A stretch of 64,000 bases of DNA from Actinomycetota bacterium (GCA_023382335.1 JAMCPM010000011.1:65229-129228); one strand, 5' to 3'. Counted from the first letter of the stretch, positions 3,798 through 16,152 are shown. Translations and numbers: made by a program. Notes: a model not told the origin generated them from the letters alone.

Positions 3798-4278
3798 AGT
3801 GAGAGGCCGTAACAACATCGTGGTTTTTATCGCGGCGCTGGCGGGACTGCTGACGCTGCTGGGATTACTGACCTTCCTGATAGCAAGAAACAGTGGCGGG
3901 ACCGCGGGGGCTGACGGCGGCATCGAGGGGACCGGCGCCACGGGCCCCAGGGATCATTCCCCTCAGGATGCGCCGCAGGCGAAGTTTCTCAGCATCTTCG
4001 CGTCGAACGCGGATGGCAGCCTGGCCTCATACATGGTCGGGGGCAAGACTGAGGAGTTTGACGCTTTTGCCGCCGACGTGGCTTCAGCGCCGCCGGCAGA
4101 GGGGGTCAGCGACGAGAGCTTCAGCGACCTGCTGGTGTTTTCCTTTGGCGCCGGCGATACGCTGGAAGTCGCTTATTCGCGGAGCCGCAACCAGTTTATA
4201 CTTGGGGACAAGCTGTTCCAGCCCGCTGAAAACCTGGCGCCGATGATCTCCGACGTCGAGCAAAAATTCAACCAGTAG
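3798..4278 (+). CDS. Hypothetical membrane-anchored protein (single N-terminal TM helix, Gly/Ala/Thr-rich linker, extracytoplasmic domain)
   Basis: GTG start preceded by GGAAGGA; hydrophobic N-terminus IVVFIAALAGLLTLLGLLTFLIA; ends at TAG 4276-4278. Confidence 0.4.
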
Positions 4279-4308: not shown

Positions 4309-5454
4309 ATCTCCATATATCTGGACAACGCCGCCAGCTCCTGCCCCAAACCGCCCGCTGTGATCGACGCCGTCGACCAGTGCCTGCGGGAGTGGTGCGC
4401 TAATCCCGGCCGCGGCGCTCACAAGACCGCTGTGGCCGCGGCCAGGGTCATATTTCATACACGTGAGAAAGCGGCGCGCCTGCTGAATGTCGCCGACAGC
4501 GCCAACATCATCTTCACGCAGAACGCGACCGATTCGCTCAACATGGCGATGAGGGGGCTGCTCTCGCCGGGCGACCACGTGGTCAGCACGACCGTTGAGC
4601 ACAACGCCGTGGTGCGCCCGCTCAGGGTGCTGACCGGCGAGGGGATCGAGGTGACACTGGTGCCCTCTGACGCAACCGGGCTCGTCGATGCCGATGCGGT
4701 GCTGGGGGCCGTCAGGGCTTCCACCAGGCTGGTCGTGCTGACGCACGCCTCGAACATCACCGGCGCCATCCAGCCTGTACCGGAACTCAGCCTCGCGCTC
4801 AGGGAGCGCGGGGTGCCGCTGCTGGTTGACGCCGCCCAGAGCGCCGGCACCATCGACCTCGATATGGAGGCGATGCCGGTTTCGATGCTAGCCTGCACCG
4901 GCCACAAGGGCCTGATGGGACCGCAGGGGATCGGGCTGCTTTACATCTCCCCCGACATCGAGTTGCGCTCAGCGCGTCAGGGAGGCACCGGCACCCATTC
5001 CGAGGAAGAACAGGATGCGCTGGCGCGCCCCGACCGCTACGAAGCGGGAACCATGAACACTCCGGGCATCGCCGGGTTGGGCGCCGGCATCGACTTCATC
5101 GAGTCTGAGGGCCTGGAAAATCTCAGGCGGCACAAGGAAGAGCTGACGCAGCTTCTCTATGAAGGCTTGCGCGGCATCCGTCCGGTCACCCTTTACGGCC
5201 CGCCGCCGGGGGCGCCAAGAGGGCCCCTGGTAGCCTTTAACGTGGGGGAGCTTCCATCATCCGAAGTGGCAGGAATTCTCGACAGCCGTTACGAAATAGC
5301 ATCACGGGCCGGCATCCATTGTGCCCCGGGAGCCCACCAGGCCATGGAAACCCTCAAGCGGGGGGCGGTACGCCTGAGCATCGGCCCGTTCAACACGCGG
5401 CAAGACATCGAGACAACCATCAACGCGGTCGCGGATATCGCACAAGGAGCCTGA
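4309..5454 (+). CDS. Cysteine desulfurase / selenocysteine lyase-like class V aminotransferase (SufS/CsdA-like); start codon uncertain (open frame from 4279, no in-frame ATG/GTG/TTG before conserved N-terminus)
   Basis: Conserved N-terminus IYLDNAASSCPKP begins at 4315, before any canonical start; SGHK PLP-lysine motif (ACTGHKGLMGPQGIGLLY); active-site Cys motif RAGIHCAPGAH near C-terminus. Confidence 0.75.
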   Translation: MSIYLDNAASSCPKPPAVIDAVDQCLREWCANPGRGAHKTAVAAARVIFHTREKAARLLNVADSANIIFTQNATDSLNMAMRGLLSPGDHVVSTTVEHNAVVRPLRVLTGEGIEVTLVPSDATGLVDADAVLGAVRASTRLVVLTHASNITGAIQPVPELSLALRERGVPLLVDAAQSAGTIDLDMEAMPVSMLACTGHKGLMGPQGIGLLYISPDIELRSARQGGTGTHSEEEQDALARPDRYEAGTMNTPGIAGLGAGIDFIESEGLENLRRHKEELTQLLYEGLRGIRPVTLYGPPPGAPRGPLVAFNVGELPSSEVAGILDSRYEIASRAGIHCAPGAHQAMETLKRGAVRLSIGPFNTRQDIETTINAVADIAQGA

Positions 5455-7016: not shown

Positions 7017-8928
7017 GCAGCTGCGCCGGTCACAGTTTTTTCCGGTAAGAATCCTTCCGGTCATCGCCGGGGTCATCTTTCTAGCCTCTTGCTGGTTTGC
7101 GTTCCCCGGGACCGCGCTTGCCTCCGATCCCAGGCTGACCGAGCTGGAAGCCAAGCAGATCGCCGCTGCTTACGGCAGCGTCCAGAACGTCATCGCCAAA
7201 CACCCCGAACTCGAGCGCAGCGCCGCCTGGGACTCCAGCCGCGGCGTCTGGGACGTATTCTGGACCAATCCCGAGAACAGCCGCAAGCTCATCGACGTGC
7301 AGGTCGACGACGCCGCCTCGAAGGTGCTTACGGTTGACATCAAGACTGAAGCGTACGGCGACGTATTGCCGTTGATGACCGATAAGGAGGCGATAGCCGT
7401 TGCCCAGAGCGACGGCAGGGTAAGCGACTGGCTGGCCGGCAAGTCCGATGTCGATCCACAGGCCAGCCTCGGCGACAACCGCATCTGGACCGTCAGTTTC
7501 TATTCAGGTGGAAACAATATCGCCGAGGTGCTGATCGACGACACCACCGGGCTGATCACCGAGGTCAGGATCGGCCCGCAGGTTGCCTGGCAGATGGCCC
7601 GGGGCTACAATGGCGCTTTTGGCAGGATCATCAACGAGCCCTACATATGGCTGCCGCTATGCTTCCTGTTCCTGGCCCCTTTCGTCGACGTCCGCAATCC
7701 CTTCCGCCTGCTGCATCTCGATCTGCTGGCGCTGCTCTCGTTTACCGTTTCGCACTATTATTTCAACCAGGGCGACATCTTCACGTCGGTGCCTCTGACT
7801 TATCCGCCACTCGCATATATCTTCCTGAGGATGGGATACATGGCGCTCAGAAGGCCTTCCAGGGTGGAGGAGGGGGTGCCGGGCGGTGAAGGGTTGATGT
7901 CATCTACGCCGCGGCTGCATCTGAATTTCTCATCCAGGACCATCTTTATCGCCCTGATGCTGCTGCTGGTCTTCCGCATCACCATCAACGTGGCCGATTC
8001 CAATGTCGTCGACGTCGGCTACTCCGGGGTCATCGGCGCCCATCGCATCCTCGAGGGACAGACGCCCTACGGCAACATGCCGTCAGATGACAGCAACGGC
8101 GATACCTATGGCCCGCTCAACTACCTGGTCTACGTTCCCTTCGAAAGGGTGCTTCCCTGGTCGGGCTCGTGGGACGACCTGCCGGCGGCTCACGCAACGG
8201 CTATCTTTTTCGACCTGGCGGCCGTGGCCGGGATGTATTTTGCCGGCAGGCGCCTGGCGGCAAAAAATTCAGCCGGGCGCCGGCGCATCGGCCTGGCGCT
8301 TGCCTGGGGGTGGGCGGCCTTCCCTTACACGACCTTTGTGCTCAGCTGCAACGTCAACGACAGCATCGTCGCCGCTTTCCTGATCTGGGGTTTCGTCTTC
8401 CTCTCCAGCCTGCCCCTCGCGGGCGTGATGCTGGGCTTTGCAGCCTCGGTAAAATTCTTCCCCGCTATTCTGGGCCCACTGTGGGCTTCCTTCCCGCGGG
8501 CCCTCCGCGGCTGGGGTAAGCGGGCGCTGTTCGTGCTCGGGTTTATCCTGGCGGCGGCAGCGACAGTGCCGATCATCCTTTTGGGAAACGGCAGTTTCAC
8601 CACCTTCTGGGAGCGCTCGCTCAAGTGGCAGCTGGGGCGGGATTCGCCTTTCAGTATCTGGGGACAACATACTGATACGCTTGCGGGAGTGCAGCACGTG
8701 GGGCAATATGTTCTGATAGCGCTGGCGCTGGGGATATATTTCTGGCCGCCGCGAAAATCATACGTGCAAGTCGCGGCGGCGTCGGCGGCGCTGGTCACCG
8801 GTTTCGAGATCCTGTTGACACACTGGTTCTACCTTTACATACCCTGGTTCTTCCCGCTGGCGTTCATCGCTTTCCTGGGATGGACCATCAGAAGGCGCGA
8901 AAGGAGCGGCATTGCCGCCATGGTTTGA
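6904..8928 (+). CDS. Polytopic membrane protein with N-terminal periplasmic PepSY-like domains and GT87/DUF2029-like glycosyltransferase-type membrane core (start uncertain; 113-nt overlap with GtrA if ATG 6904 is used)
   Basis: RRSQFF signal-like N-region; two PepSY-like segments (AKQIAAAYGSVQNVI...; KEAIAVAQSDGRVSDW...); then more than 10 TM helices. Confidence 0.45.
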   Translation: MPTLTTRSSPRPSPYRWSQYSTSPATNCGVSGRRPSAEQLRRSQFFPVRILPVIAGVIFLASCWFAFPGTALASDPRLTELEAKQIAAAYGSVQNVIAKHPELERSAAWDSSRGVWDVFWTNPENSRKLIDVQVDDAASKVLTVDIKTEAYGDVLPLMTDKEAIAVAQSDGRVSDWLAGKSDVDPQASLGDNRIWTVSFYSGGNNIAEVLIDDTTGLITEVRIGPQVAWQMARGYNGAFGRIINEPYIWLPLCFLFLAPFVDVRNPFRLLHLDLLALLSFTVSHYYFNQGDIFTSVPLTYPPLAYIFLRMGYMALRRPSRVEEGVPGGEGLMSSTPRLHLNFSSRTIFIALMLLLVFRITINVADSNVVDVGYSGVIGAHRILEGQTPYGNMPSDDSNGDTYGPLNYLVYVPFERVLPWSGSWDDLPAAHATAIFFDLAAVAGMYFAGRRLAAKNSAGRRRIGLALAWGWAAFPYTTFVLSCNVNDSIVAAFLIWGFVFLSSLPLAGVMLGFAASVKFFPAILGPLWASFPRALRGWGKRALFVLGFILAAAATVPIILLGNGSFTTFWERSLKWQLGRDSPFSIWGQHTDTLAGVQHVGQYVLIALALGIYFWPPRKSYVQVAAASAALVTGFEILLTHWFYLYIPWFFPLAFIAFLGWTIRRRERSGIAAMV

Positions 8929-10222
8929 GACAATGAGGCAGAGGTTCGACAGTCTGCCCACCAGCAGGAAACGCTGGTTGATAACCGGCCTCTTCCTGCT
9001 GGCACAGCTGGTCATCTGGTCGGCGGTCTTCGAAGTATTCTGGTACGGCGACAGGTCGATCACCGATACGCCGGTCTACTATCAGTATGCCAGCAGGATC
9101 GCACAGGGCATGTTCCCTTACCGCGATTTTTCGCTGGAATACCCGCCGGTGGCTGTGCTGCTTTTCTCGCTGCCGCGGCTGATCTCCGGGCCGGACTATA
9201 CCTGGTTCGTCTTTGCTTTCGAGGCCGAGATGCTGGCCTTCAGCTGCGGCATCGTGGTGGTGCTCTCGATCATCGCATGGCGGCAGTGGCAGAGCATCGG
9301 CAAGCTGGCGGGAGTGCTGGGGACGTACACGATCTTTCTGCTCTGCCTGGGCTCCATCGTCGAGCTGCGTTTCGACCTGGCGGCGGCATTTCTCATCCTC
9401 GCCAGCGTCGCCTGCTTCATTACCGACCGGCGGCTGGCGGCGTGGCTGCTGCTGGGCGTCGGCATCATGACCAAGATCATCCCGGTGCTGATCGCGCCGA
9501 TCTTTCTCATCAGCCACTTCCGCCGGCGGCAGTACAATCAGATGATATCGGGGCCGGCGCTGATGCTGGTTGCCGCCCTCGCCATCGCCATTCCCTTCCT
9601 CATAGCCGCGCCGGAAGGTCTGGCGAACGCATTCCTCTATCACGTGGAAAGGCCGCTGCAGCTGGAGAGCACCTGGTCGACGCCGCTGCTGCTGATGGCG
9701 AAGTACAGCGGCTACAGCGTCTCGATCATGAACTCATACGGATCCCATAACGTTTTCTCCTCGTTGTCAAACACGCTGGCGATGCTGTCCGGCCCGGTGA
9801 CGATCCTGGTGATGCTTTTCAGTTACGGCGTCTACTGGAGGCGCAGCCGGGGAGACAGCCCCCTGCAGTGGGACAGTTCACAGGTGATCCGCTTCGCGGT
9901 CCTGACGATCGCGATTTTCATCTTCGGGGGGAAGGTCTTCTCGCCGCAGTTCCTGATCTGGCTATTGCCGCTGATCCCCCTGATCAAGGGCAGGGACCGC
10001 GGCCTGATCACGGGACTGTTCGCCGCAGTGCTGCTACTGACGCAGTGGGAATTCCCGGCACGGTACTGGGAGCTGTATCTGCTGCAGAAACAGATGGTTG
10101 TGGAAGTCGCGGCGCGGAACGTCCTCTTGGGCCTGCTGGTAGTGGTGCTGCTGGTCTCGACTGGAAGGCAGGGCCGGCTGGAGAGAGCTGAAGTCCCCGA
10201 AGCCGAGCGCGTGGCGGCCTGA
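8912..10222 (+). CDS. Polytopic membrane protein, GT87/DUF2029-like putative glycosyltransferase
   Basis: 436 aa, 10-12 predicted TM helices, paralogous in architecture to the preceding gene, which it overlaps by 17 nt. Confidence 0.45.
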   Translation: MPPWFETMRQRFDSLPTSRKRWLITGLFLLAQLVIWSAVFEVFWYGDRSITDTPVYYQYASRIAQGMFPYRDFSLEYPPVAVLLFSLPRLISGPDYTWFVFAFEAEMLAFSCGIVVVLSIIAWRQWQSIGKLAGVLGTYTIFLLCLGSIVELRFDLAAAFLILASVACFITDRRLAAWLLLGVGIMTKIIPVLIAPIFLISHFRRRQYNQMISGPALMLVAALAIAIPFLIAAPEGLANAFLYHVERPLQLESTWSTPLLLMAKYSGYSVSIMNSYGSHNVFSSLSNTLAMLSGPVTILVMLFSYGVYWRRSRGDSPLQWDSSQVIRFAVLTIAIFIFGGKVFSPQFLIWLLPLIPLIKGRDRGLITGLFAAVLLLTQWEFPARYWELYLLQKQMVVEVAARNVLLGLLVVVLLVSTGRQGRLERAEVPEAERVAA

Positions 10223-10267
10223 ATTGCCGGTCAGCGCAGCCTGATGCCGCGACGCGGGGTGCTGCTT

Positions 10268-11044
10268 TTAGTCCGCCGCGACCTGCAGCCGCTCGATCGA
10301 TGTCGCTCTGCCGTCATCGCCCGCGGAGATGAGGACCCCCTCGATCCAGACGTCATCCTGCGCGACCTCGAACTTGATCGGCATCTCGGTGATGAAACGC
10401 TGCAGGATGATCCTCTTGTCGACGCCGATAACTGAATTCCGGGGACCGGTCATGCCGGCGTCAGTGATGTAAGCCGTCCCTTTGGCAAGGATCTTCTCGT
10501 CTGCGGTCTGCACGTGGGTATGGGTGCCGATCACAGCCGTGACTCTGCCGTCGAGATAGTGCCCCATCGCCACCTTCTCGCTGGTCGCCTCGGCATGAAA
10601 ATCAAGCAGGATATGCTTGACCCCGGCCGGCAATCCTGCCAGCAGCGGCTCGATGGTCTGAAAGGCTCCGCGCGGAGCGCCGATGTAGAGGTTCCCCGAG
10701 AGATTAAGCACCCCCAGGCTGACGCCATTCTTCTCGACCACGGTCCAGCCGCGTCCCGGATTTTCGGGAAGGTAATTGGCCGGCCTGACGATGCGGTCGG
10801 AGCTGTCGAGGAAGGGAAAGACCTCCCGCTGCCGCCAGATATGGTTTCCGGTGGTGATGACATCGACGCCGCCGGAGAGGAGCTTCTCGGCGATCTTGCT
10901 GGTGATGCCGGCGCCGCTGGCGGTATTCTCGCCGTTGGCTACGACGAAATCGGCGCCGTGATCGTCGATCATTTGCGGCAGTCTCGCCAGCAGCGCCTCC
11001 CGCCCGGGCTTTCCGAATATGTCGCTGATGAACATGATTCGCAT
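10268..11044 (-). CDS. YmdB-like metallophosphoesterase (TIGR00282 family)
   Basis: MRIMFISDIFGKPGREAL...GNHIWRQRE...DFHAEATSEK are family hallmarks; start trimmed to conserved MRIMF. Confidence 0.7.
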   Translation of the reverse strand: MRIMFISDIFGKPGREALLARLPQMIDDHGADFVVANGENTASGAGITSKIAEKLLSGGVDVITTGNHIWRQREVFPFLDSSDRIVRPANYLPENPGRGWTVVEKNGVSLGVLNLSGNLYIGAPRGAFQTIEPLLAGLPAGVKHILLDFHAEATSEKVAMGHYLDGRVTAVIGTHTHVQTADEKILAKGTAYITDAGMTGPRNSVIGVDKRIILQRFITEMPIKFEVAQDDVWIEGVLISAGDDGRATSIERLQVAAD

Positions 11045-11159
11045 GAAGCCGAGTATACCAGATGTGGGCTGGGCGCCATCCGCCCGCCCGCCGCTTGGCA
11101 TCGTCTTTGCCCCTCCTATATCATCAATCCCGAAGTCAATTTTTTCCTGGAGAAATGAA

Positions 11160-12134
11160 ATGAAGATCATGATCACCGGCGGCGCCGGCTACATCGGCAG
11201 CATCGTCGCCGAAGCCTGCCTCGAGGCCGGCGACGAAGTCACCGTTTATGACAACCTGTCAACCGGCCACCGCGAGGCGGTGGCTGCAGGAGCCCGGCTG
11301 GTGGTCGGTGATGTCGCCGATGAGGAGCTGCTGCGGACCGAGCTGAGAAACAGCGGCATCGAGGCGGTCATCCACATGGCCGGATTCATCGAGGCGGGCG
11401 AATCGATGCAGGACCCTGGCAAATATTTCCGCAACAACACATGCAGGCCGGTGAGCCTGCTCGAGGCCATGGTGTCGGCGGATGTGAAACGGTTCCTGTT
11501 CTCATCCACGGCGGCAATCTATGGCGACCCGCAGACAGAAGTGCTCGCTGAAGACCATCCCCAGAATCCCACCAATGCCTATGGCGAATCCAAGCTCCTG
11601 TTCGAGCGCATTCTCGACTGGTACGACCGCATCCATGACATCAGGCATGCGGCGCTAAGATATTTCAATGCGGCCGGAGCGTCCGGTGAGAGGGGAGAGG
11701 ACCATCATCCCGAAAGTCATCTGATACCGCTGGTGCTGCAGGCGGCACTGGGCCAGCGCCCTCATGTCGAGATCTATGGCACCGACTATCCCACCGCTGA
11801 CGGGACCTGCGTGCGCGACTACATCCACGTCCGCGATCTGGCCGACGCCCACTTGCTGGCGCTGCGTCGTCTTGACGGCGAGAGCCTGCATTACAACCTC
11901 GGCAACGGCAGGGGATACTCCGTGCGCGAAGTGATCGAGACGGCCCGCGAGGTGACGGGAATCGACTTCGAGGTCAAGGAGGCCGGACGCCGCGAGGGCG
12001 ATCCGGTGGTTCTGGTTGCCGGCTCGGCGAAGATCGTGGATGAGCTCGGATGGCAGCCCCGCAATCCGTCGCTGGAGGCCATCGTTGCCAGTGCCTGGCA
12101 ATGGCACAGTTCTCATCCGGGCGGCTACAGCTAG
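11160..12134 (+). CDS. galE: UDP-glucose 4-epimerase
   Basis: MKIMITGGAGYIGS Rossmann motif, YxxxK catalytic pair; GGAGA RBS upstream of ATG 11160. Confidence 0.85.
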   Translation: MKIMITGGAGYIGSIVAEACLEAGDEVTVYDNLSTGHREAVAAGARLVVGDVADEELLRTELRNSGIEAVIHMAGFIEAGESMQDPGKYFRNNTCRPVSLLEAMVSADVKRFLFSSTAAIYGDPQTEVLAEDHPQNPTNAYGESKLLFERILDWYDRIHDIRHAALRYFNAAGASGERGEDHHPESHLIPLVLQAALGQRPHVEIYGTDYPTADGTCVRDYIHVRDLADAHLLALRRLDGESLHYNLGNGRGYSVREVIETAREVTGIDFEVKEAGRREGDPVVLVAGSAKIVDELGWQPRNPSLEAIVASAWQWHSSHPGGYS

Positions 12135-12176
12135 CCATCCTGTCTTTTTGAAAGAGGGCGCTCCCTGCGAGATATA

Positions 12177-12201
12177 AAGGGCGCCCCTGCGGGGCGCCCT
12201 T
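12177..12201 (+). terminator. Perfect hairpin AAGGGCGCCCC-TGC-GGGGCGCCCTT downstream of galE
   Basis: 10-bp GC-rich perfect inverted repeat 43 nt after the galE stop; no strong U-tract. Confidence 0.45.
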
Positions 12202-12564
12202 AAACAAACTATCCTGTTGACTTATTTGGGGGGAAGCAGCCTCTTTCCGGAATTTGGCGGAAGTAAGCCTGGACCAATTTCTCTGTGGATTTGGAGAACT
12301 ACCAACCGGATTATGCTAGTGGAGGCAAGGAAGGCGAGAATAATCAACGTTCCAGAGATGGACAGTCGGGCGAAGGTATTTACAGACAAACCGGCATGCG
12401 TCCAGCATCAACCGGACCATTGCGGCGGCTTGCCTTAAATCTCTACTCTTCAACCCAGATACCGAACTCTGAACTCTACGACAACTCGAACTCTCAACGC
12501 GAATAAAAAAACTTGGAAGTTTGTACTTGGAATGACTCCGAAAATGCTATTCAATTGTTGGTGC

Positions 12565-12723
12565 CTAATGTTCGCACACCAGCTTGCCGTGCTCGTACTC
12601 GCAGCGGGAACCATGATGGTTACCGGCACCACCGCCATATCCATCGCCGAAAGCTACGGCGCTGAAAGCCAGCGAGGCGGTGCAGATCAGCCAGACGGTG
12701 GCAAGTATTGCCCATTTCCTCAA
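12565..12723 (-). CDS. Candidate small secreted peptide (52 aa, TTG start): signal peptide plus Gly/His/Cys-rich C-terminus
   Basis: AGGAGG 7 nt upstream of TTG; LRKWAILATVWLICTASLAFSAVA|FGDGYGGGAGNHHGSRCEYEHGKLVCEH; GC3-rich codons matching genome bias; below the 60-aa cutoff of the ORF track. Confidence 0.35.
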   Translation of the reverse strand: MRKWAILATVWLICTASLAFSAVAFGDGYGGGAGNHHGSRCEYEHGKLVCEH

Positions 12724-12874
12724 ACATCCACCTCCTCTCGAACCTCAGCCTCAAGCGGCCGTTTGCGTCACCCGTGGATGTCTAGAATAGCGAAAAATCG
12801 CGGATCGGTCAATAGTTTATTTGGTTAGAAACGGCTTAAATAAGGCAAACTCATTACTCCCCGGGGGTAATAGC

Positions 12875-14932
12875 GTGAAATTCCCTCATACGCGGATGCT
12901 CGCCTGGCTGGGAACAGCCGGCATCCTGGCTATGCTGGCGTGGCTGGCGGCAGTCGACGGCGGCTATTTCTCGCGGGAATTCCTCACGGCCGCCGTAGCC
13001 GGGTGGGCTGTGGCCGGCCTGATCATCCTGGCCGGATGGGACCGGCTGGAGATCCCGCAGGGATCGGGCTGGCCGCTCATCATGCTGGCGGCGATATTCG
13101 CCTGGACCGGCCTGAGTACGATCTGGTCGATCGGCCCCGATTCTTCGCTGATGGAATTCGCGAGGGTGTCAATTTATCTGACCGGGTTCATGGCGGTGCT
13201 CTCGGGAGCCCGCAACCGCCGCAAGATATCGATCTCGGTAGCCTTTTTCGTAGCCCTGATGACGGCGCTTGCGGCTTTTGCGCTGCTGGCAAAGGTCAGT
13301 CCAGATTATTCACAGACTTATGCTTTTGCCGGCGGGCGGCTGATGGGATCGCTTGGCTACTGGAACGCGCTGGCGATTCTCATGGTTATGGGCATCCTGC
13401 CGTGCCTGTGGCTGTCGTCTTCGAGGGAAGTTTCCTGGGGCTGGAGGCCGGCGGCAACCGCTGCGCTCATGCTTATGGGGCTCACGCTCTTTTTCACCCT
13501 CTCACGCGGAGGCATTCTTGTCGGCGTGTTTGCGCTGCTCGTTTATTTGGCCGTGACGCCGCGGCGACTGGGGCTGATATTCACCCTCGCCGCCGCCTGG
13601 CTGCCGGCGGGCCTGATTGCCTGGCGTACCTACACGGCCCTGCCGACGCTGCATGCGGCGCCCGAAGGCTTCGCGATCGATCCGTCTGAAGGAAGGCAGT
13701 TTGCCTATTTATTGTTTGCCGGTCTCGTGGCTGCCGCGGCGCTCAAAGCCGTCACCCTGATTTTGCCTGACCGCATACCGCCCACCAGGGGCGCCATCGC
13801 CGCCACGGCGGCGGCGATGATTATCGCGCTCGTGGTTGTGGCGGGGATCGGCGTCAGCCAGCGCGACAGAATCTCCAGCGAGGTGGACAGCTTGAGAAAC
13901 GCGGCCCAGGTGCAGCCTGGATTCAGCGGCGTCGTATCGAGCGACGCCCGGGGCGTGGCCAGGCTGGCGAGCACCTCCGACCAGCGCACCGAGCTCTGGC
14001 AGATCGGCATGCAGAATTTCAGCGCGCATCCTGTCCTGGGGACCGGGGCGGCAACATACTATTTTGCGAATCTGAGGCTGGAGAGCGGCGTTGGCATGGC
14101 GAGGGACCCGCATTCCATCTGGGTGCGTTTCCTTTCCGACCAGGGGATCGTCGGTTTCACGCTGCTGCTCGGCTTCCTGGTGACCCTTGGCGTCGGCCTG
14201 ATCGCGCCTATGTGGCCCAACAGGGAACTGCGCCGCGACGGCCTCTACTTGAGTCTGGTGCTGGCGTCGGCCGCCTGGATCGCGGATTCCAGCCTCGAAT
14301 GGAATTGGGCGATGCCGGCAGTCGCCTTGACCTTTTTCCTGATAAACGGTCTTGCCTTGCGCCTGGCAAGCGTGGCGCCGCGAAGCGGCGCAGCCGGGAC
14401 CGGCGTGCAGCAGGCAGCCGATGGCGGCATCGATGAAAAACCTTTGCGGATACCGGTTTGGCTGCGCATGGCCGTGCTCATGTCCGGCATCACGCTGTCC
14501 ATTATTTTCATGGCGTTGCTGGTGTCTACTATCCTTGGCGACAGGGGGCGGGACCGGCTGCTGGCCGGGGACATCGACTCTGCCGCCGTCGCCGCCTCGA
14601 GGGCGCACAGGTTAGATCCTTTCGCGACCGGCCCGCTTGTGATCGAATCCCAGATTGCCGTCACGCGCGGCGATTATGCCGGCGCCAGGGATAGGCTGGT
14701 GGAGGCACTGAAGATCGAGCCGCAGCAGTCAGCGCTATACCGCAGGCTGGCAGTGATCGAATTCTATTACCTGGGAGCCACGAAAGCCGGCATAGACTCA
14801 CTCAGCCAGGCGATCGACCTCGATCCCCAGGAGCGCGGCCTGCATCTTCTCTTGCACCAGATGGTATATGACCAGGAAATCTACAACCGCACCGGGCGCA
14901 TGCCGCCGGTGCCAGAACAGGGTGATTCATGA
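12875..14932 (+). CDS. O-antigen ligase (Wzy_C) family polytopic membrane protein with C-terminal TPR domain
   Basis: FTLSRGGILVGVFALLVY Wzy_C-type motif, about 12 TM helices, C-terminal TPR-like repeats (AVAASRAHRLDP...ALKIEP...AIDLDP); GTG 12875 in frame. Confidence 0.6.
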   Translation: MKFPHTRMLAWLGTAGILAMLAWLAAVDGGYFSREFLTAAVAGWAVAGLIILAGWDRLEIPQGSGWPLIMLAAIFAWTGLSTIWSIGPDSSLMEFARVSIYLTGFMAVLSGARNRRKISISVAFFVALMTALAAFALLAKVSPDYSQTYAFAGGRLMGSLGYWNALAILMVMGILPCLWLSSSREVSWGWRPAATAALMLMGLTLFFTLSRGGILVGVFALLVYLAVTPRRLGLIFTLAAAWLPAGLIAWRTYTALPTLHAAPEGFAIDPSEGRQFAYLLFAGLVAAAALKAVTLILPDRIPPTRGAIAATAAAMIIALVVVAGIGVSQRDRISSEVDSLRNAAQVQPGFSGVVSSDARGVARLASTSDQRTELWQIGMQNFSAHPVLGTGAATYYFANLRLESGVGMARDPHSIWVRFLSDQGIVGFTLLLGFLVTLGVGLIAPMWPNRELRRDGLYLSLVLASAAWIADSSLEWNWAMPAVALTFFLINGLALRLASVAPRSGAAGTGVQQAADGGIDEKPLRIPVWLRMAVLMSGITLSIIFMALLVSTILGDRGRDRLLAGDIDSAAVAASRAHRLDPFATGPLVIESQIAVTRGDYAGARDRLVEALKIEPQQSALYRRLAVIEFYYLGATKAGIDSLSQAIDLDPQERGLHLLLHQMVYDQEIYNRTGRMPPVPEQGDS

Positions 14933-15819
14933 TGACAATTCGGCAAAGAGTTTATTGCACGGCATTATCGAAGCCTTTGATTGTAGCGATCATGCTCATG
15001 CTGGCCTTGATGGCCGCGGCCGGCTGTGGCGGCTCCTCAAACCAGGAAAATCCCTCCACGGCGACGCAGCCGGCTCAAACCGCCACGGCGCCGCCAAACA
15101 CGCCTGTTCTATACAAATTCGCGGTCTGCGGTGACAACCGTACTCTGGGAATAGACAACGGCGTGCTGCCGCGCATTCTCGATTCGGCAAAAGCCAGCGG
15201 CGCGCAGTTTATGGTCAATACCGGCGATGTGTCAAATGGCGGCACCACTGAGGAACTCCGGCGATACAAGGAGCTGATCGACGGATCGGGTCTGAAGGTC
15301 TATACGGCTCCCGGCAACCATGACATCGGCGCCGGCGGCAGGAGCGACGCTTACGCCAGCGTCATGGGCGACTATTATTTCAGCTTTGATTACCAGGCCG
15401 ATCATTTCATCGTGCTCGATAACGCCGACGACAAGACCGGCATCGACAACGCCCAGATGGACTGGTTCGAAGGCGACCTGGCCGTGAACGCAACCCGCCC
15501 GCATCAGTTCATCTTCACCCACGTTCCCGTGCCCGATCCCTCGCTGCCGTCCTCACATGTTGCCGGCGAGACCGGTCAGACGGGCCTGGAGTCAGGCAAA
15601 AGGCTGGTCGAGGATGCGAAGAAATATCCGGACGTCAGCGGCATCTTCTTCGGACATATCCACGCGTATTTCGCATACCAGCTCGACGGTATCAGCGCTT
15701 ACATAACCGGCGGCGCCGGCGCGCCCCTGTATTTTCCGGAAGGCTCAGGCGGATATTTCCACTACCTGCTGGTTAGCGTACGGGCGGAACGGGTCGATGT
15801 CGAGGTTGTCAGGGTCTAG
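14929..15819 (+). CDS. Calcineurin-like metallophosphoesterase lipoprotein
   Basis: Lipobox LMAAAGCGG; GDNR, TGD and GNHD metallophosphatase motifs. Confidence 0.7.
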   Translation: MMTIRQRVYCTALSKPLIVAIMLMLALMAAAGCGGSSNQENPSTATQPAQTATAPPNTPVLYKFAVCGDNRTLGIDNGVLPRILDSAKASGAQFMVNTGDVSNGGTTEELRRYKELIDGSGLKVYTAPGNHDIGAGGRSDAYASVMGDYYFSFDYQADHFIVLDNADDKTGIDNAQMDWFEGDLAVNATRPHQFIFTHVPVPDPSLPSSHVAGETGQTGLESGKRLVEDAKKYPDVSGIFFGHIHAYFAYQLDGISAYITGGAGAPLYFPEGSGGYFHYLLVSVRAERVDVEVVRV

Positions 15820-15825
15820 AGCGGC

Positions 15826-16152
15826 TTATTCCCGCTCGTAACCGAAAGCAACCGCCAGGCGGAAATGGCGGCGGGAGAGCAGCTCGTCCCCGAGTTTCTC
15901 ACCGCAGCGTCCCAGGCAGTAGTGGGCGTAACCGTTCGTGGGGTAACGGTCGACGACGAAGCGGAATTCTTCGGCAGCCCGGCCGTAGCGTCCGAAATTG
16001 TAATATGCGCGGCCAAGCGCCTCGCGGATGGAAGTTCGCTCCGGTTCCTGGTTGCGGGCGCGCTCAAGGATGATAGCGGCCTGGGCGGGATTGCCGCCTC
16101 TGAGGAAGCTCTCGCCGCGTTTGAGGAGTTCGTATGCAGTGTCGGCGCTCAA
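15826..16152 (-). CDS. Small TPR-repeat protein
   Basis: 108 aa with TPR-like helical repeats (AYYNFGRYGRAAEEFRFVVDRYPTNGYAHYCLGRC). Confidence 0.45.
   Translation of the reverse strand: MSADTAYELLKRGESFLRGGNPAQAAIILERARNQEPERTSIREALGRAYYNFGRYGRAAEEFRFVVDRYPTNGYAHYCLGRCGEKLGDELLSRRHFRLAVAFGYERE

What the first reader, a model, noticed from the sequence alone, without database searches (positions are those of the whole stretch)
12135..12892. 750-bp low-coding intergenic region with an unannotated 52-aa signal-peptide peptide gene and heptamer repeats
Between the galE terminator and the Wzy_C-TPR gene lies an unusually long, AT-richer gap. On the minus strand (12565..12723) there is an ORF below the 60-aa cutoff with AGGAGG 7 nt upstream and a TTG start. 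It encodes a textbook signal peptide (RKWAILATVWLICTASLAFSAVA) and a mature part GDGYGGGAGNHHGSRCEYEHGKLVCEH rich in Gly, His and two Cys, with genome-typical GC3 codons. Downstream of it (12441-12500) are imperfect GAACTCT heptamer repeats.
Basis: seen in the sequence. Interest (0 to 1): 0.55.

Follow-up and report, generated by a model that had tools for sequence, protein, structure and literature searches.

The report
Conserved exported microprotein gene with 3′ hairpin
The small ORF is a real, strongly conserved gene for a 52-residue exported peptide found only in a narrow group of uncultured Actinomycetota, and the "heptamer repeats" behind it are part of a conserved, long RNA hairpin attached to that gene; both are undescribed and of unknown function.

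Summary
ORF 12565..12723(-) has a TTG start, with AGGAGG 7 nt upstream. It lies in a 740-nt gap of 51% GC in a 60% GC window.

It is a real gene. About 30 small homologues exist. They come only from Thermoleophilia/Actinomycetota MAGs and always lie between the Wzy_C gene and galE. Third codon positions vary at 24 of 26 N-terminal codons while the residues stay fixed.

Two points need correcting:
- **Not strictly unannotated.** The identical protein is called in GCA_054640975.1. A 98% variant is named "hypothetical protein".
- **Not a variable repeat tract.** The heptamers do not vary in length between strains. They sit in a 60-80 nt G/U-rich core that is nearly invariant where neutral sites are saturated. 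The core forms the 5′ arm of a ~270-nt imperfect hairpin starting at the stop codon.

The N-terminal signal/anchor helix is 85% identical between clades, more than GalE (72%) or Wzy_C (47%). The Asp/His/Gly-rich tail varies and usually ends in a Cys-Cys β-hairpin. Relatives carry 2-3 tandem copies.

No Pfam, NCBIfam or Rfam family matches.

My best guess at function is an extracytoplasmic metal-binding or metal-sensing microprotein with a structured regulatory 3′UTR. That is inference only.

The parts
12784..12812 (-). Sigma-70-like promoter of the peptide gene: TTGACC, 17-nt spacer, TATTCT
   Evidence: Consensus scan. The same TTGACC-17/18-TAT(T/C)CT is kept at the same distance in L012 and L005 while the surrounding 5' region is only ~41% identical. 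Not experimentally mapped.
12724..12772 (-). 5'UTR inverted repeat: ACAUCCAC (12772->12765) can pair with GUGGAUGU (12731->12724), which overlaps the last G of the SD and the SD-start spacer
   Evidence: Read from the sequence and the alignment. L012 keeps 6 bp and L005 keeps 5 bp with a different sequence. This is inference only.
12731..12736 (-). Shine-Dalgarno AGGAGG, 7 nt before the TTG start
   Evidence: Every orthologue has GGAGGTG, AGAGGTG or GGGGGTG 5-8 nt before its start codon (ATG in most, TTG in this clade).
12565..12723 (-). CDS of the 52-aa exported microprotein (stop TAG at 12565-12567)
   Evidence: ORF list. Homologues. Codon-position analysis gives 6/4/24 variable sites per codon position over 26 N-terminal codons, with 19 columns synonymous-only.
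12652..12723 (-). Residues 1-24: n-region MRK, hydrophobic helix, AVA motif (signal peptide or signal-anchor)
   Evidence: Alignment A1. 23/27 residues are identical between clades, against GalE 72% and Wzy_C 47%. AlphaFold2 predicts a helix at residues 3-24.
12568..12651 (-). Residues 25-52: flexible Gly/His/Asp tail plus a Cys41...Cys50 beta-hairpin (CEYEHGKLVC)
   Evidence: Alignment A1 and further family members. AlphaFold2 gives strands 41-44 and 47-50, with residues 25-40 at low confidence.
12297..12567 (-). About 270-nt imperfect hairpin (structured 3'UTR) whose basal helix starts at the stop codon
   Evidence: RNAalifold on clade A (-50 kcal/mol). Single-sequence folds of 7 homologues all give the same rod shape. 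A covariance model built from clade B aligns over its full length to window 12326-12503 (32.8 bits, E about 1e-5). The window's own z-score is only -0.8.
12426..12508 (-). Conserved G/U-rich core (…UUCGCGUUGAGAGUUCGAGUUGUCGUAGAGUUCAGAGUUCGGUAUCUGGGUUGAAGAGUAG…), the 5' arm of the hairpin
   Evidence: nhmmer finds one hit per locus, always ~50-65 nt after the first peptide copy. There are 35 invariant columns across 9 sequences. Identity to L012 and L005 is 97% and 88%, where 4-fold sites are 56% and 46% identical.
12464..12494 (+). The three exact GAACTCT heptamers (12464, 12471, 12488), i.e. AGAGUUC on the peptide strand, inside the core
   Evidence: No length variation among the window, L001, L011 and L012. 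Clade B has GAGUUA(Y)GAGUG at this position.
12385..12435 (-). Apical part of the hairpin (GGCAAGCCG…CCGG-UUGAUGCUGGACGCAUG-CCGG…UUUGUCU)
   Evidence: Its inner stem was picked up as 'terminator-like' by the consensus scan.
12205..12296 (-). Further constrained non-coding stretch distal to the hairpin, including the small stem CUUCCG…CGGAAG and a C6 run
   Evidence: 70-88% identical to L005 and L012. No conserved ORF and no 3-nt periodicity. Function not addressed.
12176..12201 (.). Bidirectional intrinsic terminator (9-bp GC stem GGGCGCCCC/GGGGCGCCC, 3-nt loop) shared by galE and, probably, the peptide transcript
   Evidence: Read. Conserved with compensatory loop and stem changes in L011, L012 and L005. 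On the minus strand it is followed by UUUAUAU.

Best explanation
Window 12565-12723(-) is a genuine, expressed gene for a 52-residue exported microprotein. It belongs to a previously undescribed family restricted to a few uncultured Thermoleophilia-like Actinomycetota.

Shown:
- The ORF, its ribosome-binding site and its position between the Wzy_C-TPR gene and galE are conserved.
- The protein is under strong purifying selection.
- The most constrained part is the N-terminal hydrophobic helix with its AVA-FGD junction.
- The tail is a variable-length Asp/His/Gly-rich linker that usually ends in a two-cysteine loop.
- The gene is followed by constrained non-coding sequence. Its 60-80 nt G/U-rich core contains the 'heptamers'.
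- The core forms the 5' arm of a ~270-nt imperfect hairpin, specific to the peptide strand, that begins at or just after the stop codon.

Inferred:
- The N-terminus inserts through Sec/SRP. It is either cleaved after AVA, giving a 28-residue secreted peptide, or retained as an N-in/C-out anchor.
- The His/Asp-rich tail and the disulfide-stapled beta-hairpin lie outside the membrane. There they bind or sense a divalent metal, or contact an envelope partner.
- The hairpin is a structured 3'UTR that controls the stability, processing or translation-coupled fate of this mRNA. A ribosome terminating at the stop codon would have to open its basal helix in this clade.
For: Gene reality:
- Homologues: 7 clusters, 6 in the exhaustive search of 1.84 billion representatives, and 26 clusters.
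- All have SD sequences.
- Variable sites per codon position are 6/4/24.
- Synteny is shown.

Constraint on the N-terminus: 23/27 residues identical between clades, against GalE 0.72 and Wzy_C 0.47.

Fold: AlphaFold2 gives helix 3-24 and a beta-hairpin at 41-50.

Constraint on the 3' region:
- Identity to L005 is 62-88% where 4-fold sites are 46% identical and the 5'UTR is ~41%.
- There is no conserved ORF and no 3-nt periodicity.
- The core is found once per locus, behind the first peptide copy, in three clades.

Hairpin:
- Independent folds give the same architecture.
- Alifold gives -74 kcal/mol for clade B and -50 for clade A.
- Sense z-scores are below antisense z-scores in all 7 sequences. 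L015 is -4.7 against 0.0.
- The clade A pair GUUC:GAAC corresponds to GUUA:UAAC in clade B.
- On the model-fitted alignment, 88.9% of cells are paired against 31-47% when partners are slid. Nine pairs show double changes.
Against: - No expression data of any kind were available.
- The window's own hairpin is not more stable than shuffled sequence (z = -0.8; L012 +0.2). Two of the three clade C sequences do not show the sense-below-antisense asymmetry.
- The pair statistics come from few sequences, and partly from an alignment fitted to the structure.
- A sequence-only alignment of both clades gives no common structure.
- The element is absent after the peptide gene in L007, and reduced in L014 and L017. 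It is therefore dispensable for the peptide.
- Metal binding, export and cleavage are inferred from composition only.
- No metal-homeostasis gene is adjacent. The neighbourhood is envelope-glycan biosynthesis.
Confidence: 0.6

Rival explanations
1. Uncleaved single-pass membrane microprotein that works through its transmembrane helix. It would be a small subunit or regulator of a membrane protein, such as the divergently transcribed 12-TM Wzy_C-TPR protein or a sensor kinase, in the manner of MgrB, AcrZ or KdpF.
For: - The hydrophobic segment is 22 residues long and is the best conserved part of the protein. It is 85% identical between clades where Wzy_C is 47%.
- It contains small-xxx-small spacings (S17xxxG/S21, A22xxxG26).
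- It is always adjacent to Wzy_C.
- It carries two extracytoplasmic cysteines, as MgrB does.
Against: - The AVA|FGD junction is invariant and fits signal peptidase I.
- The whole 20-kb region is syntenic, so adjacency to Wzy_C is not specific.
- One paralogue sits after serS, away from Wzy_C.
- There is no Pfam hit to MgrB or any other small-protein family.
Confidence: 0.2
2. Type I toxin-antitoxin-like module. The peptide would be a small membrane toxin whose long, folded mRNA keeps it untranslated, with an antisense RNA made from the 3' region.
For: - The peptide is about 50 aa, with one TM helix and a Cys-containing external tail, as in Hok/Gef.
- The mRNA is long and highly structured.
- A possible 5'UTR pairing occludes the SD-start spacer.
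- Relatives carry tandem duplications of the unit.
Against: - No Pfam hit to Hok, Ldr, Fst, TisB or similar families.
- No positionally conserved antisense promoter.
- G-U pairs and z-scores favour structure on the sense strand only.
- The tail is acidic.
- The orthologous position is kept across lineages whose neutral sites are saturated, which is unusual for type I loci.
Confidence: 0.1
3. CutF-like translational sensor. Co-translational export of the metal-binding nascent peptide would modulate the downstream stem-loop and so the expression of what follows. Ancestrally that would be the second peptide copy.
For: - CutF is a small Sec-exported protein with a Cys/His metal motif. It is followed by an mRNA stem-loop that it controls (PMC9973294).
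- Here the hairpin starts at the stop codon.
- Several relatives have a second copy downstream on the same strand.
Against: - No proline-rich motif in the last 15 residues.
- No same-strand downstream gene in the window, because galE is convergent.
- In relatives the second copy lies ~450 nt beyond the core and has its own duplicated promoter.
- No DUF2946 hit.
- 52 codons are too few for the signal peptide to emerge fully before termination, unless translation stalls.
Confidence: 0.08
4. Secreted bioactive peptide: a bacteriocin, pheromone or RiPP-like precursor with a conserved leader and a diversifying core, amplified in tandem.
For: - Conserved N-terminus, hypervariable tail, and 1-3 tandem copies per genome.
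- A disulfide loop in most members.
Against: - No maturase, ABC exporter, immunity or receptor kinase gene among the neighbours within about 10 kb.
- No NCBIfam or Pfam precursor model hit.
- The 'leader' is a plain hydrophobic Sec signal.
Confidence: 0.08
5. The long hairpin is a selfish or structural imperfect-palindrome element (MITE/ERIC-like) that happened to insert behind the gene, not a functional part of it.
For: - A ~270-nt imperfect palindrome with ~14-28 nt terminal inverted repeats in clade B.
- Presence is variable: absent in L007 and partial in L014.
Against: - One copy per locus, and no other copy in the 64-kb window or in any of the loci fetched.
- The orthologous position and a near-invariant core are kept across three clades with saturated neutral sites.
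- The stability asymmetry is strand-specific.
Confidence: 0.07

Closest known systems
CutF-like exported sensor peptides (DUF2946; Rhodobacter capsulatus cutFOG; PMC9973294)
   Same: A small protein with a Sec signal peptide and a Cys/His-rich putative metal motif exposed outside. The gene is followed directly by an mRNA stem-loop.
   Different: No C-terminal proline-rich stalling motif. No same-strand downstream gene in the window. No DUF2946 similarity. The hairpin is ~270 nt rather than a short RBS-shielding stem-loop.
MgrB-type small membrane regulators (about 47 aa, N-in TM helix, two periplasmic Cys)
   Same: Size, predicted topology, two extracytoplasmic cysteines, and a highly constrained hydrophobic helix.
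   Different: No sequence similarity. An invariant AXA cleavage motif. An acidic, His-rich low-complexity tail. No adjacent sensor kinase.
Hok/Gef and other type I toxins with fold-back mRNAs
   Same: A peptide of about 50 aa with a TM helix and an external Cys-containing tail. A long structured mRNA. Tandem duplication of the unit in some genomes.
   Different: No family hit. No antisense promoter found. Acidic tail. Stable synteny across deep lineages.
Dual-function RNAs and 3'UTR-derived sRNAs (RNAIII/hld, SgrS/SgrT, CpxQ)
   Same: A short ORF on a transcript whose much longer, conserved, structured non-coding part carries a conserved single-strand-like sequence core.
   Different: No target, processing site or transcript boundary is known here. 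The core is G/U-rich and mostly paired in the predicted fold.
ERIC/MITE-type imperfect palindromes in transcribed intergenic regions
   Same: A long imperfect palindrome between convergent genes that can fold in the RNA.
   Different: Single copy in all sequence examined. Orthologous position. The core is conserved well beyond what pairing alone requires.

Membership tests
Sec-type (signal peptidase I) signal peptide | Positively charged n-region, hydrophobic h-region of at least ~10 residues, small residues at -3 and -1 (AXA) | tested here: met
   MRK / WAILATVWLICTASLAF / (S/G)AVA|FGD. The AVA-FG(D) junction is invariant in A1 and kept in nearly all further members.
Sec-type (signal peptidase I) signal peptide | Score from a trained predictor, and actual cleavage and export | not testable with these tools
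   No signal-peptide predictor or experiment was available. The 22-residue hydrophobic run and its unusual conservation leave an uncleaved signal-anchor open.
CutF-like proteins (PMC9973294 criteria) | Under 150 aa, N-terminal signal peptide, Cys/His metal motif | tested here: met
   52 aa. Signal-like N-terminus. NHH…C-x8-C here, and H-C-[EQ]-Y plus D/H runs in relatives.
CutF-like proteins (PMC9973294 criteria) | [quoted passage not shown] | tested here: not met
   There is no proline in the tail of the window peptide. Most listed members also lack one, and the two with a tail proline (P0021, P0022) have a single P, not a PP motif.
CutF-like proteins (PMC9973294 criteria) | [quoted passage not shown] | tested here: not met
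   The next gene, galE, is convergent. There is no Pfam hit at E<=10. Only relatives with a second peptide copy have a same-strand neighbour.
Type I toxin-antitoxin | Small (<60 aa) hydrophobic single-TM peptide in an intergenic region, often tandemly duplicated | tested here: met
   52 aa, with a helix at residues 3-24. Relatives carry 2-3 copies.
Type I toxin-antitoxin | Similarity to a known toxin family (Hok/Gef, Ldr, Fst, TisB, Ibs, TxpA…) | tested here: not met
   Pfam and NCBIfam scans of 8 members gave no family.
Type I toxin-antitoxin | Antisense or divergent sRNA antitoxin gene | tested here: inconclusive
   A consensus scan of 7 loci found no positionally conserved antisense promoter. 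The structure signal is on the sense strand. No RNA-seq was available.
Type I toxin-antitoxin | Toxicity on overexpression | not testable with these tools
   This needs an experiment.
RiPP or bacteriocin precursor | Adjacent maturase, transporter or immunity genes; a recognised precursor model | tested here: not met
   The neighbours are Wzy_C, metallophosphoesterases, a TPR protein, GalE, YmdB, GT87, GtrA and an aminotransferase. There were no NCBIfam or Pfam hits.
Any Rfam RNA family | Covariance-model match | tested here: not met
   cmscan of 11500-13500 at E<=10 gave only two chance-level hits: mir-1306 at 16 bits and an EIAV frameshift site at 13 bits. No tRNA or tmRNA was found.
Tandem or phase-variable repeat tract | Head-to-tail array that varies in copy number between strains | tested here: not met
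   TRF finds nothing at score >=30. The tract is identical in the window, L001, L011 and L012.
MITE/ERIC-like palindromic element | Many dispersed copies per genome | tested here: inconclusive
   Only the syntenic copy was found in the 64-kb window and in the loci fetched.

The most novel reading that the evidence does not exclude
The locus may encode a dual-function RNA unit: an mRNA for an exported metal-sensing microprotein, physically coupled through its stop codon to a conserved ~270-nt hairpin. The near-invariant G/U-rich core of that hairpin would be released or processed according to translation or export of the peptide. That would link extracytoplasmic conditions to an RNA regulator. 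This would be a new RNA motif and a new microprotein family that duplicated together as one module.
Probability: 0.15. Interest if true: 0.65.

Novelty: new member of a known kind. Interest (0 to 1): 0.4.

Why it matters
The finding adds a well-supported microprotein family to the small-protein catalogue of deep-branching, uncultured Actinomycetota. The family has about 30 sequence clusters, strong purifying selection, and no Pfam, NCBIfam or Rfam counterpart.

It also shows an unusual pattern. The signal-peptide-like helix is more conserved than a housekeeping enzyme, while the exposed tail diversifies and the gene amplifies in tandem.

The attached conserved 3' hairpin is a candidate new structured RNA motif. 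If peptide and RNA act together, the locus would be a compact example of coupling between export or metal sensing and RNA-level control. If not, it is simply a lineage-specific hypothetical gene with a stabilising 3'UTR.

The family's narrow distribution and the absence of cultured hosts limit its immediate impact.

Tried and rejected
- **Rfam and ARAGORN** on the region found nothing meaningful.
- **Tandem Repeats Finder** found no array.
- **Pfam and NCBIfam** on 8 family members found nothing. One member gave a chance-level 0.045 hit to a porin model.
- **Coding explanations for the downstream conservation.** All six frames were compared in the window, L012 and L005. ORFs are not kept in frame, there is no 3-nt periodicity, and the antisense frame through the core is broken by a 1-nt indel and by stops in clade B. 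A 12-codon ORF over the core exists only in clade C. Rejected.
- **Short local RNA structure within the core alone.** The consensus energy is -0.56 kcal/mol. Rejected; the core pairs with a distant 3' arm instead.
- **A common structure from a sequence-only alignment of clades A and B.** This failed because the 3' arms do not align. A covariance model was used instead.
- **Antisense promoter for a type I antitoxin.** None was conserved.
- **LexA/Cheo box, DnaA box, T-loop and TRAP-like (G/U)AG repeat readings of the core.** These were considered by eye. They were dropped because the half-sites are direct rather than inverted, or the spacings do not fit.
- **Trans targets.** A search of the window for sequence complementary to the core found only chance-level matches.
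- **Literature searches** for comparable small proteins, and for type I systems in Actinobacteria or Thermoleophilia, found nothing on this family.
- **Fold search of the 52-residue model.** Not attempted, because it would be uninformative at pLDDT 68.
Full report
**1. Observation**

The sequence and the mechanical ORF list confirm a 52-codon ORF at 12565..12723 on the minus strand. It reads MRKWAILATVWLICTASLAFSAVAFGDGYGGGAGNHHGSRCEYEHGKLVCEH. It starts with TTG, and AGGAGG lies at 12731-12736, followed by a 7-nt spacer.

The ORF lies in the gap between the galE stop (12132-12134) and the Wzy_C-TPR start. That start is GTG at 12875, by correspondence with the public gene call. The gap is 740 nt with 51% GC, against 59.5% for the window and 63% for the two flanking genes.

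GAACTCT occurs exactly at 12464, 12471 and 12488. That is three of only eight occurrences on both strands of the 64 kb. Tandem Repeats Finder sees no array.

ORF GC3 is 0.66, higher than in the other two frames but below the 0.77 of its neighbours.

**2. The ORF is a real gene and is already called in public records**

The identical protein is a called gene in NCBI assembly GCA_054640975.1. A 98% variant is deposited as [quoted passage not shown]. The window is about 98% identical to both assemblies, so these are three strains of one species.

Searches of increasing depth found only small proteins of 46-84 residues:
- 7 clusters in a first search.
- 6 clusters at 50% identity in an exhaustive HMM search of 1.84 billion representatives.
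- 26 clusters with a profile built from the distant members.

Almost all named sources are Thermoleophilia, Actinomycetota or Actinomycetes MAGs.

Every orthologue has a GGAGGTG, AGAGGTG or GGGGGTG box 5-8 nt before its start codon.

Over the 26 N-terminal codons of eight orthologues, the variable sites per codon position are 6, 4 and 24. Nineteen columns change only synonymously. That is the signature of selection on the protein, not on an RNA or DNA element.

**3. Anatomy of the protein**

Alignment A1 and the further members show three parts:
- **N-terminal block.** M-R-K-x-A-I-L/I-A-S/T-V/I-W-L-x-x-T-x-S/T-L-A/G-F-x-A-V-A-F-G-D is nearly invariant.
- **Linker.** A variable-length, low-complexity stretch rich in Asp, His and Gly.
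- **Cys loop.** In most members, a two-cysteine loop introduced by (H/R/D/K)-C-(E/Q)-Y. The Cys spacing varies: C-x3-C, C-x5-C, C-x6-C, C-x8-C or C-x13-C. One paralogue type has no cysteines.

AlphaFold2 with the family alignment gives a helix at residues 3-24, a low-confidence linker at 25-40, and a beta-hairpin at 41-44/47-50 with the two cysteines at its ends. Mean pLDDT is 68.

The N-terminus has every sequence feature of a Sec signal peptide: MRK, a hydrophobic run, and AVA|F. But it is the most conserved part of the protein. It is 23/27 identical between the two main clades. Between the same clades GalE is 72% identical, Wzy_C is 47%, and 4-fold degenerate sites are saturated at 34-39% identity.

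Ordinary signal peptides are not conserved to this degree. Either the junction and helix are under special constraint, for example on the mode of targeting, or the helix is retained in the membrane and is itself functional.

The exhaustive profile search found this N-terminus on no larger protein. It is therefore not a general sorting signal.

**4. Genomic context**

In every locus with enough sequence, the gene lies between the divergently transcribed Wzy_C(-TPR) gene and the convergent galE. This sits inside a 20-kb syntenic block: serS, a TPR protein, a metallophosphoesterase, Wzy_C | peptide | galE, ymdB, GT87, gtrA, an aminotransferase, ileS. Because the whole block is syntenic, adjacency to Wzy_C is not specific evidence of a functional link.

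Copy number varies:
- One copy in the window's clade.
- Two tandem copies in L002/L003/L004, L010+L009, L020/L021 and L024.
- A third copy after serS in L022/L023.

**5. The heptamers are part of a conserved non-coding element**

The distance from the peptide stop to the galE stop ranges from 33 nt (L007) to 899 nt (L002).

Within this stretch, a core is almost invariant ~50-65 nt after the stop of the first copy. It reads TTCGCGTTGAGAGTTCGAG-N-GT-N-GAGTT-N-GGTA-N-GGGTTGAAGAGT. It is present in clades A, B and C, with 35 invariant columns in 9 sequences.

An HMM of the core finds exactly one hit per locus, including window 12426-12508(-). It finds no hit elsewhere in the window or in any locus fetched (pattern search).

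The tandem GAACTCT-GAACTCT form exists only in the window's clade. Clade B reads GAGTTA(Y)GAGTG at this position. The tract is identical in the three conspecific strains and in L012. The proposed strain-to-strain length variation is therefore refuted.

The constraint extends over the whole 350 nt downstream of the ORF:
- The window is 62-88% identical to L005 there.
- 4-fold sites in galE are 46% identical.
- The peptide's own 5'UTR is ~41% identical.

Substitutions show no 3-nt periodicity. No ORF is kept in frame in any of the six frames. The region is therefore constrained non-coding sequence.

**6. A long hairpin on the peptide strand**

Each homologue, folded alone, gives the same rod-like shape:
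- A basal helix starts at the stop codon in clade A, or ~16-19 nt after it in clade B.
- The G/U-rich core forms the 5' arm.
- There is an apical stem-loop.
- A C/U-rich 3' arm pairs back to the core. For example, GAAGAG pairs with CUUC in every sequence.

RNAalifold gives -74 kcal/mol for clade B and -50 kcal/mol for clade A.

The sense strand always folds better, relative to dinucleotide shuffles, than the antisense strand across the 7 sequences:

| Locus | Sense z | Antisense z |
|---|---|---|
| L015 | -4.7 | 0.0 |
| L016 | -2.8 | -1.7 |
| L009 | -2.0 | -1.0 |
| L002 | -1.4 | +0.9 |
| L005 | -1.2 | +0.9 |
| window | -0.8 | +0.9 |
| L012 | +0.2 | +1.3 |

This fits the many G-U pairs in the model. 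For the window itself, however, the fold is not significantly more stable than chance. In clade C only L024 keeps the asymmetry (+0.47 against +1.87). L020 (-0.52 against -1.55) and L022 (-0.60 against -0.34) do not.

Between clades there are compensatory differences. GUUC:GAAC in clade A corresponds to GUUA:UAAC in clade B.

A covariance model built from four clade B sequences aligns over its full length to the clade A elements. The window hit is 12326-12503, 32.8 bits, E about 1e-5.

On that alignment:
- 88.9% of cells are standard pairs, against 31-47% when partners are slid by 1-3 columns.
- Nine pairs show double changes.
- No shuffle out of 500 reaches the observed values.

Three caveats apply. 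There are few sequences, the alignment is fitted to the model, and a sequence-only alignment of both clades yields no common structure.

Second copies carry their own shorter closing helix. L008 has GGCAGGGAAC/GUUCCCUGCC. L002 copy 2 has a closing helix with a degenerate core. The third copy in L022 keeps the GGGTAT…GGGGCTGAAGAGT half of the core.

So ORF plus 3' element behaves as one duplicating unit. The element is missing after the peptide in L007 and is truncated in L014 and L017. It is therefore not indispensable.

**7. Other signals**

- A sigma-70-like promoter (TTGACC-17-TATTCT, 12812..12784) is conserved in clade A.
- Clade B has TTGCAT-17-TATCCT preceded by CTTGTGAAAT, read.
- In the window's 5'UTR, ACAUCCAC can pair with GUGGAUGU, which overlaps the SD-start spacer (12765-12772 and 12724-12731). 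This pairing is only partly kept in L012 and L005.
- A 9-bp GC hairpin at 12179-12199 is a bidirectional terminator. It is probably where the peptide transcript ends, which would give a 3'UTR of about 390 nt.
- No conserved antisense promoter was found.

**8. What it most likely is and does**

Shown:
- A conserved, translated microprotein gene whose product has a hydrophobic N-terminal helix and a short polar tail.
- A constrained non-coding 3' region with a sequence core and a long-hairpin architecture on the same strand.

Inferred:
- The positive-inside rule (MRK) and the AXA motif place the tail outside the membrane.
- The two cysteines at the ends of a predicted beta-hairpin would form a disulfide there.
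- The Asp/His-rich composition and the conserved His before the first Cys suggest divalent-metal binding or sensing.
- The hairpin is a 3'UTR that stabilises, processes or otherwise controls the mRNA. In the window's clade, a terminating ribosome must melt its base.

I put about 0.9 on "real gene plus conserved 3' RNA element". I put about 0.25 on the metal-binding function specifically. The overall figure of 0.6 reflects that mixture.

Rivals, detailed in the structured fields:
- An uncleaved TM micro-subunit or regulator (0.2).
- A type I toxin-like module (0.1).
- A CutF-like translational sensor (0.08).
- A secreted bioactive or RiPP-like peptide (0.08).
- A selfish palindromic element (0.07).

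**9. Comparison with known systems**

The closest mechanistic analogue is CutF (PMC9973294). Its published criteria require a C-terminal PP motif and a same-strand downstream gene. Neither is met here, and there is no DUF2946 similarity.

MgrB-like regulators and Hok/Gef toxins share size and topology but no sequence similarity. No antitoxin signal was found.

No Rfam family matches the RNA.

**10. Verdict**

The gene is already called as a hypothetical protein. The heptamers are a conserved core, not a variable repeat.

It is a new family of a known kind: an exported microprotein with a structured 3'UTR. It is narrowly distributed in uncultured organisms, and no function has been demonstrated. 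Interest is moderate, at 0.4.

Noticed in passing
L002 10001-10156 and 10669-10827; L020 4915-5079 and 5624-5821; L024 7321-7464 and 8001-8186; L022 2720-2878(-), 1996-2175(-) and 8001-8147: Relatives carry 2-3 paralogous copies of the peptide gene. They are in tandem between Wzy_C and galE, and in L022/L023 a third copy sits after serS. One paralogue type (MRKWAIIASIWLVAATTLAF…) has a long His/Gly/Asp tail with no cysteines.
   Followed up: partly
window 12724-12731 and 12765-12772: A perfect 8-bp inverted repeat lies in the peptide 5'UTR (ACAUCCAC / GUGGAUGU). It would occlude the last SD base and the SD-start spacer. L012 keeps 6 bp and L005 keeps 5 bp of a different sequence.
   Followed up: partly
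window 12205-12296: The stretch distal to the hairpin, up to the terminator, is also 70-88% identical to L012 and L005. It contains a small stem CUUCCG…CGGAAG, a C6 run and an ATCCACA motif. It may be a remnant of a lost second copy's region or a further RNA domain.
   Followed up: no
window 12176-12201: A 9-bp all-GC hairpin with a 3-nt loop lies between the convergent galE and peptide transcripts. It looks like a bidirectional terminator. The consensus terminator scan missed it, probably because flanking A-T pairs extend the stem and shorten the T run.
   Followed up: partly
L017 400-470: In this relative the core element lies directly against the 3' end of galE, with only 110 nt between the two stop codons. 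There is no room for the 3' arm outside the galE coding sequence. The core sequence is therefore retained without the full hairpin.
   Followed up: no
L020 about 5125-5165; L024 about 7515-7555: In clade C, a 12-codon ORF (MNKVRVDSSSGL / MNKVRVPRSGGF) starts at a conserved AGCAUGAAUAAAG and overlaps the start of the core. It ends at the same UAG in both. It is absent from clades A and B.
   Followed up: partly
L015/L016 about 4185-4215 and 4435-4462; L009 about 93-125 and 345-372: Clade B has ~14-28 nt terminal inverted repeats (UUGGCA(R)GGGAG…GGAACGCC / GGCGUU…CUCCCUUGCCAG) that close the hairpin. The same post-stop motif follows second copies as well. In L014 only the distal arm remains.
   Followed up: partly
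P0009: One family member is deposited under 'MAG: Pseudomonadota bacterium' (AB1760_16900) on a 3.5-kb contig. Given the otherwise strictly actinobacterial distribution, this is probably a mis-binned contig.
   Followed up: no
L002 1-2900; L022 11132-16147; L024 454-1695: The syntenic neighbourhood in relatives carries dissimilatory sulfur genes: Sat, AprAB and DsrE/DsrH/TusA-like genes. This suggests sulfate- or sulfur-metabolising Thermoleophilia-like organisms.
   Followed up: no
window 8912-16000: The surrounding block is an envelope-glycan cluster: GT87 glycosyltransferase, GtrA-like protein, DegT-type aminotransferase, GalE, a Wzy_C protein with C-terminal TPRs, and two metallophosphoesterases including a YmdB-type. 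Its order is conserved across all the clades examined.
   Followed up: partly
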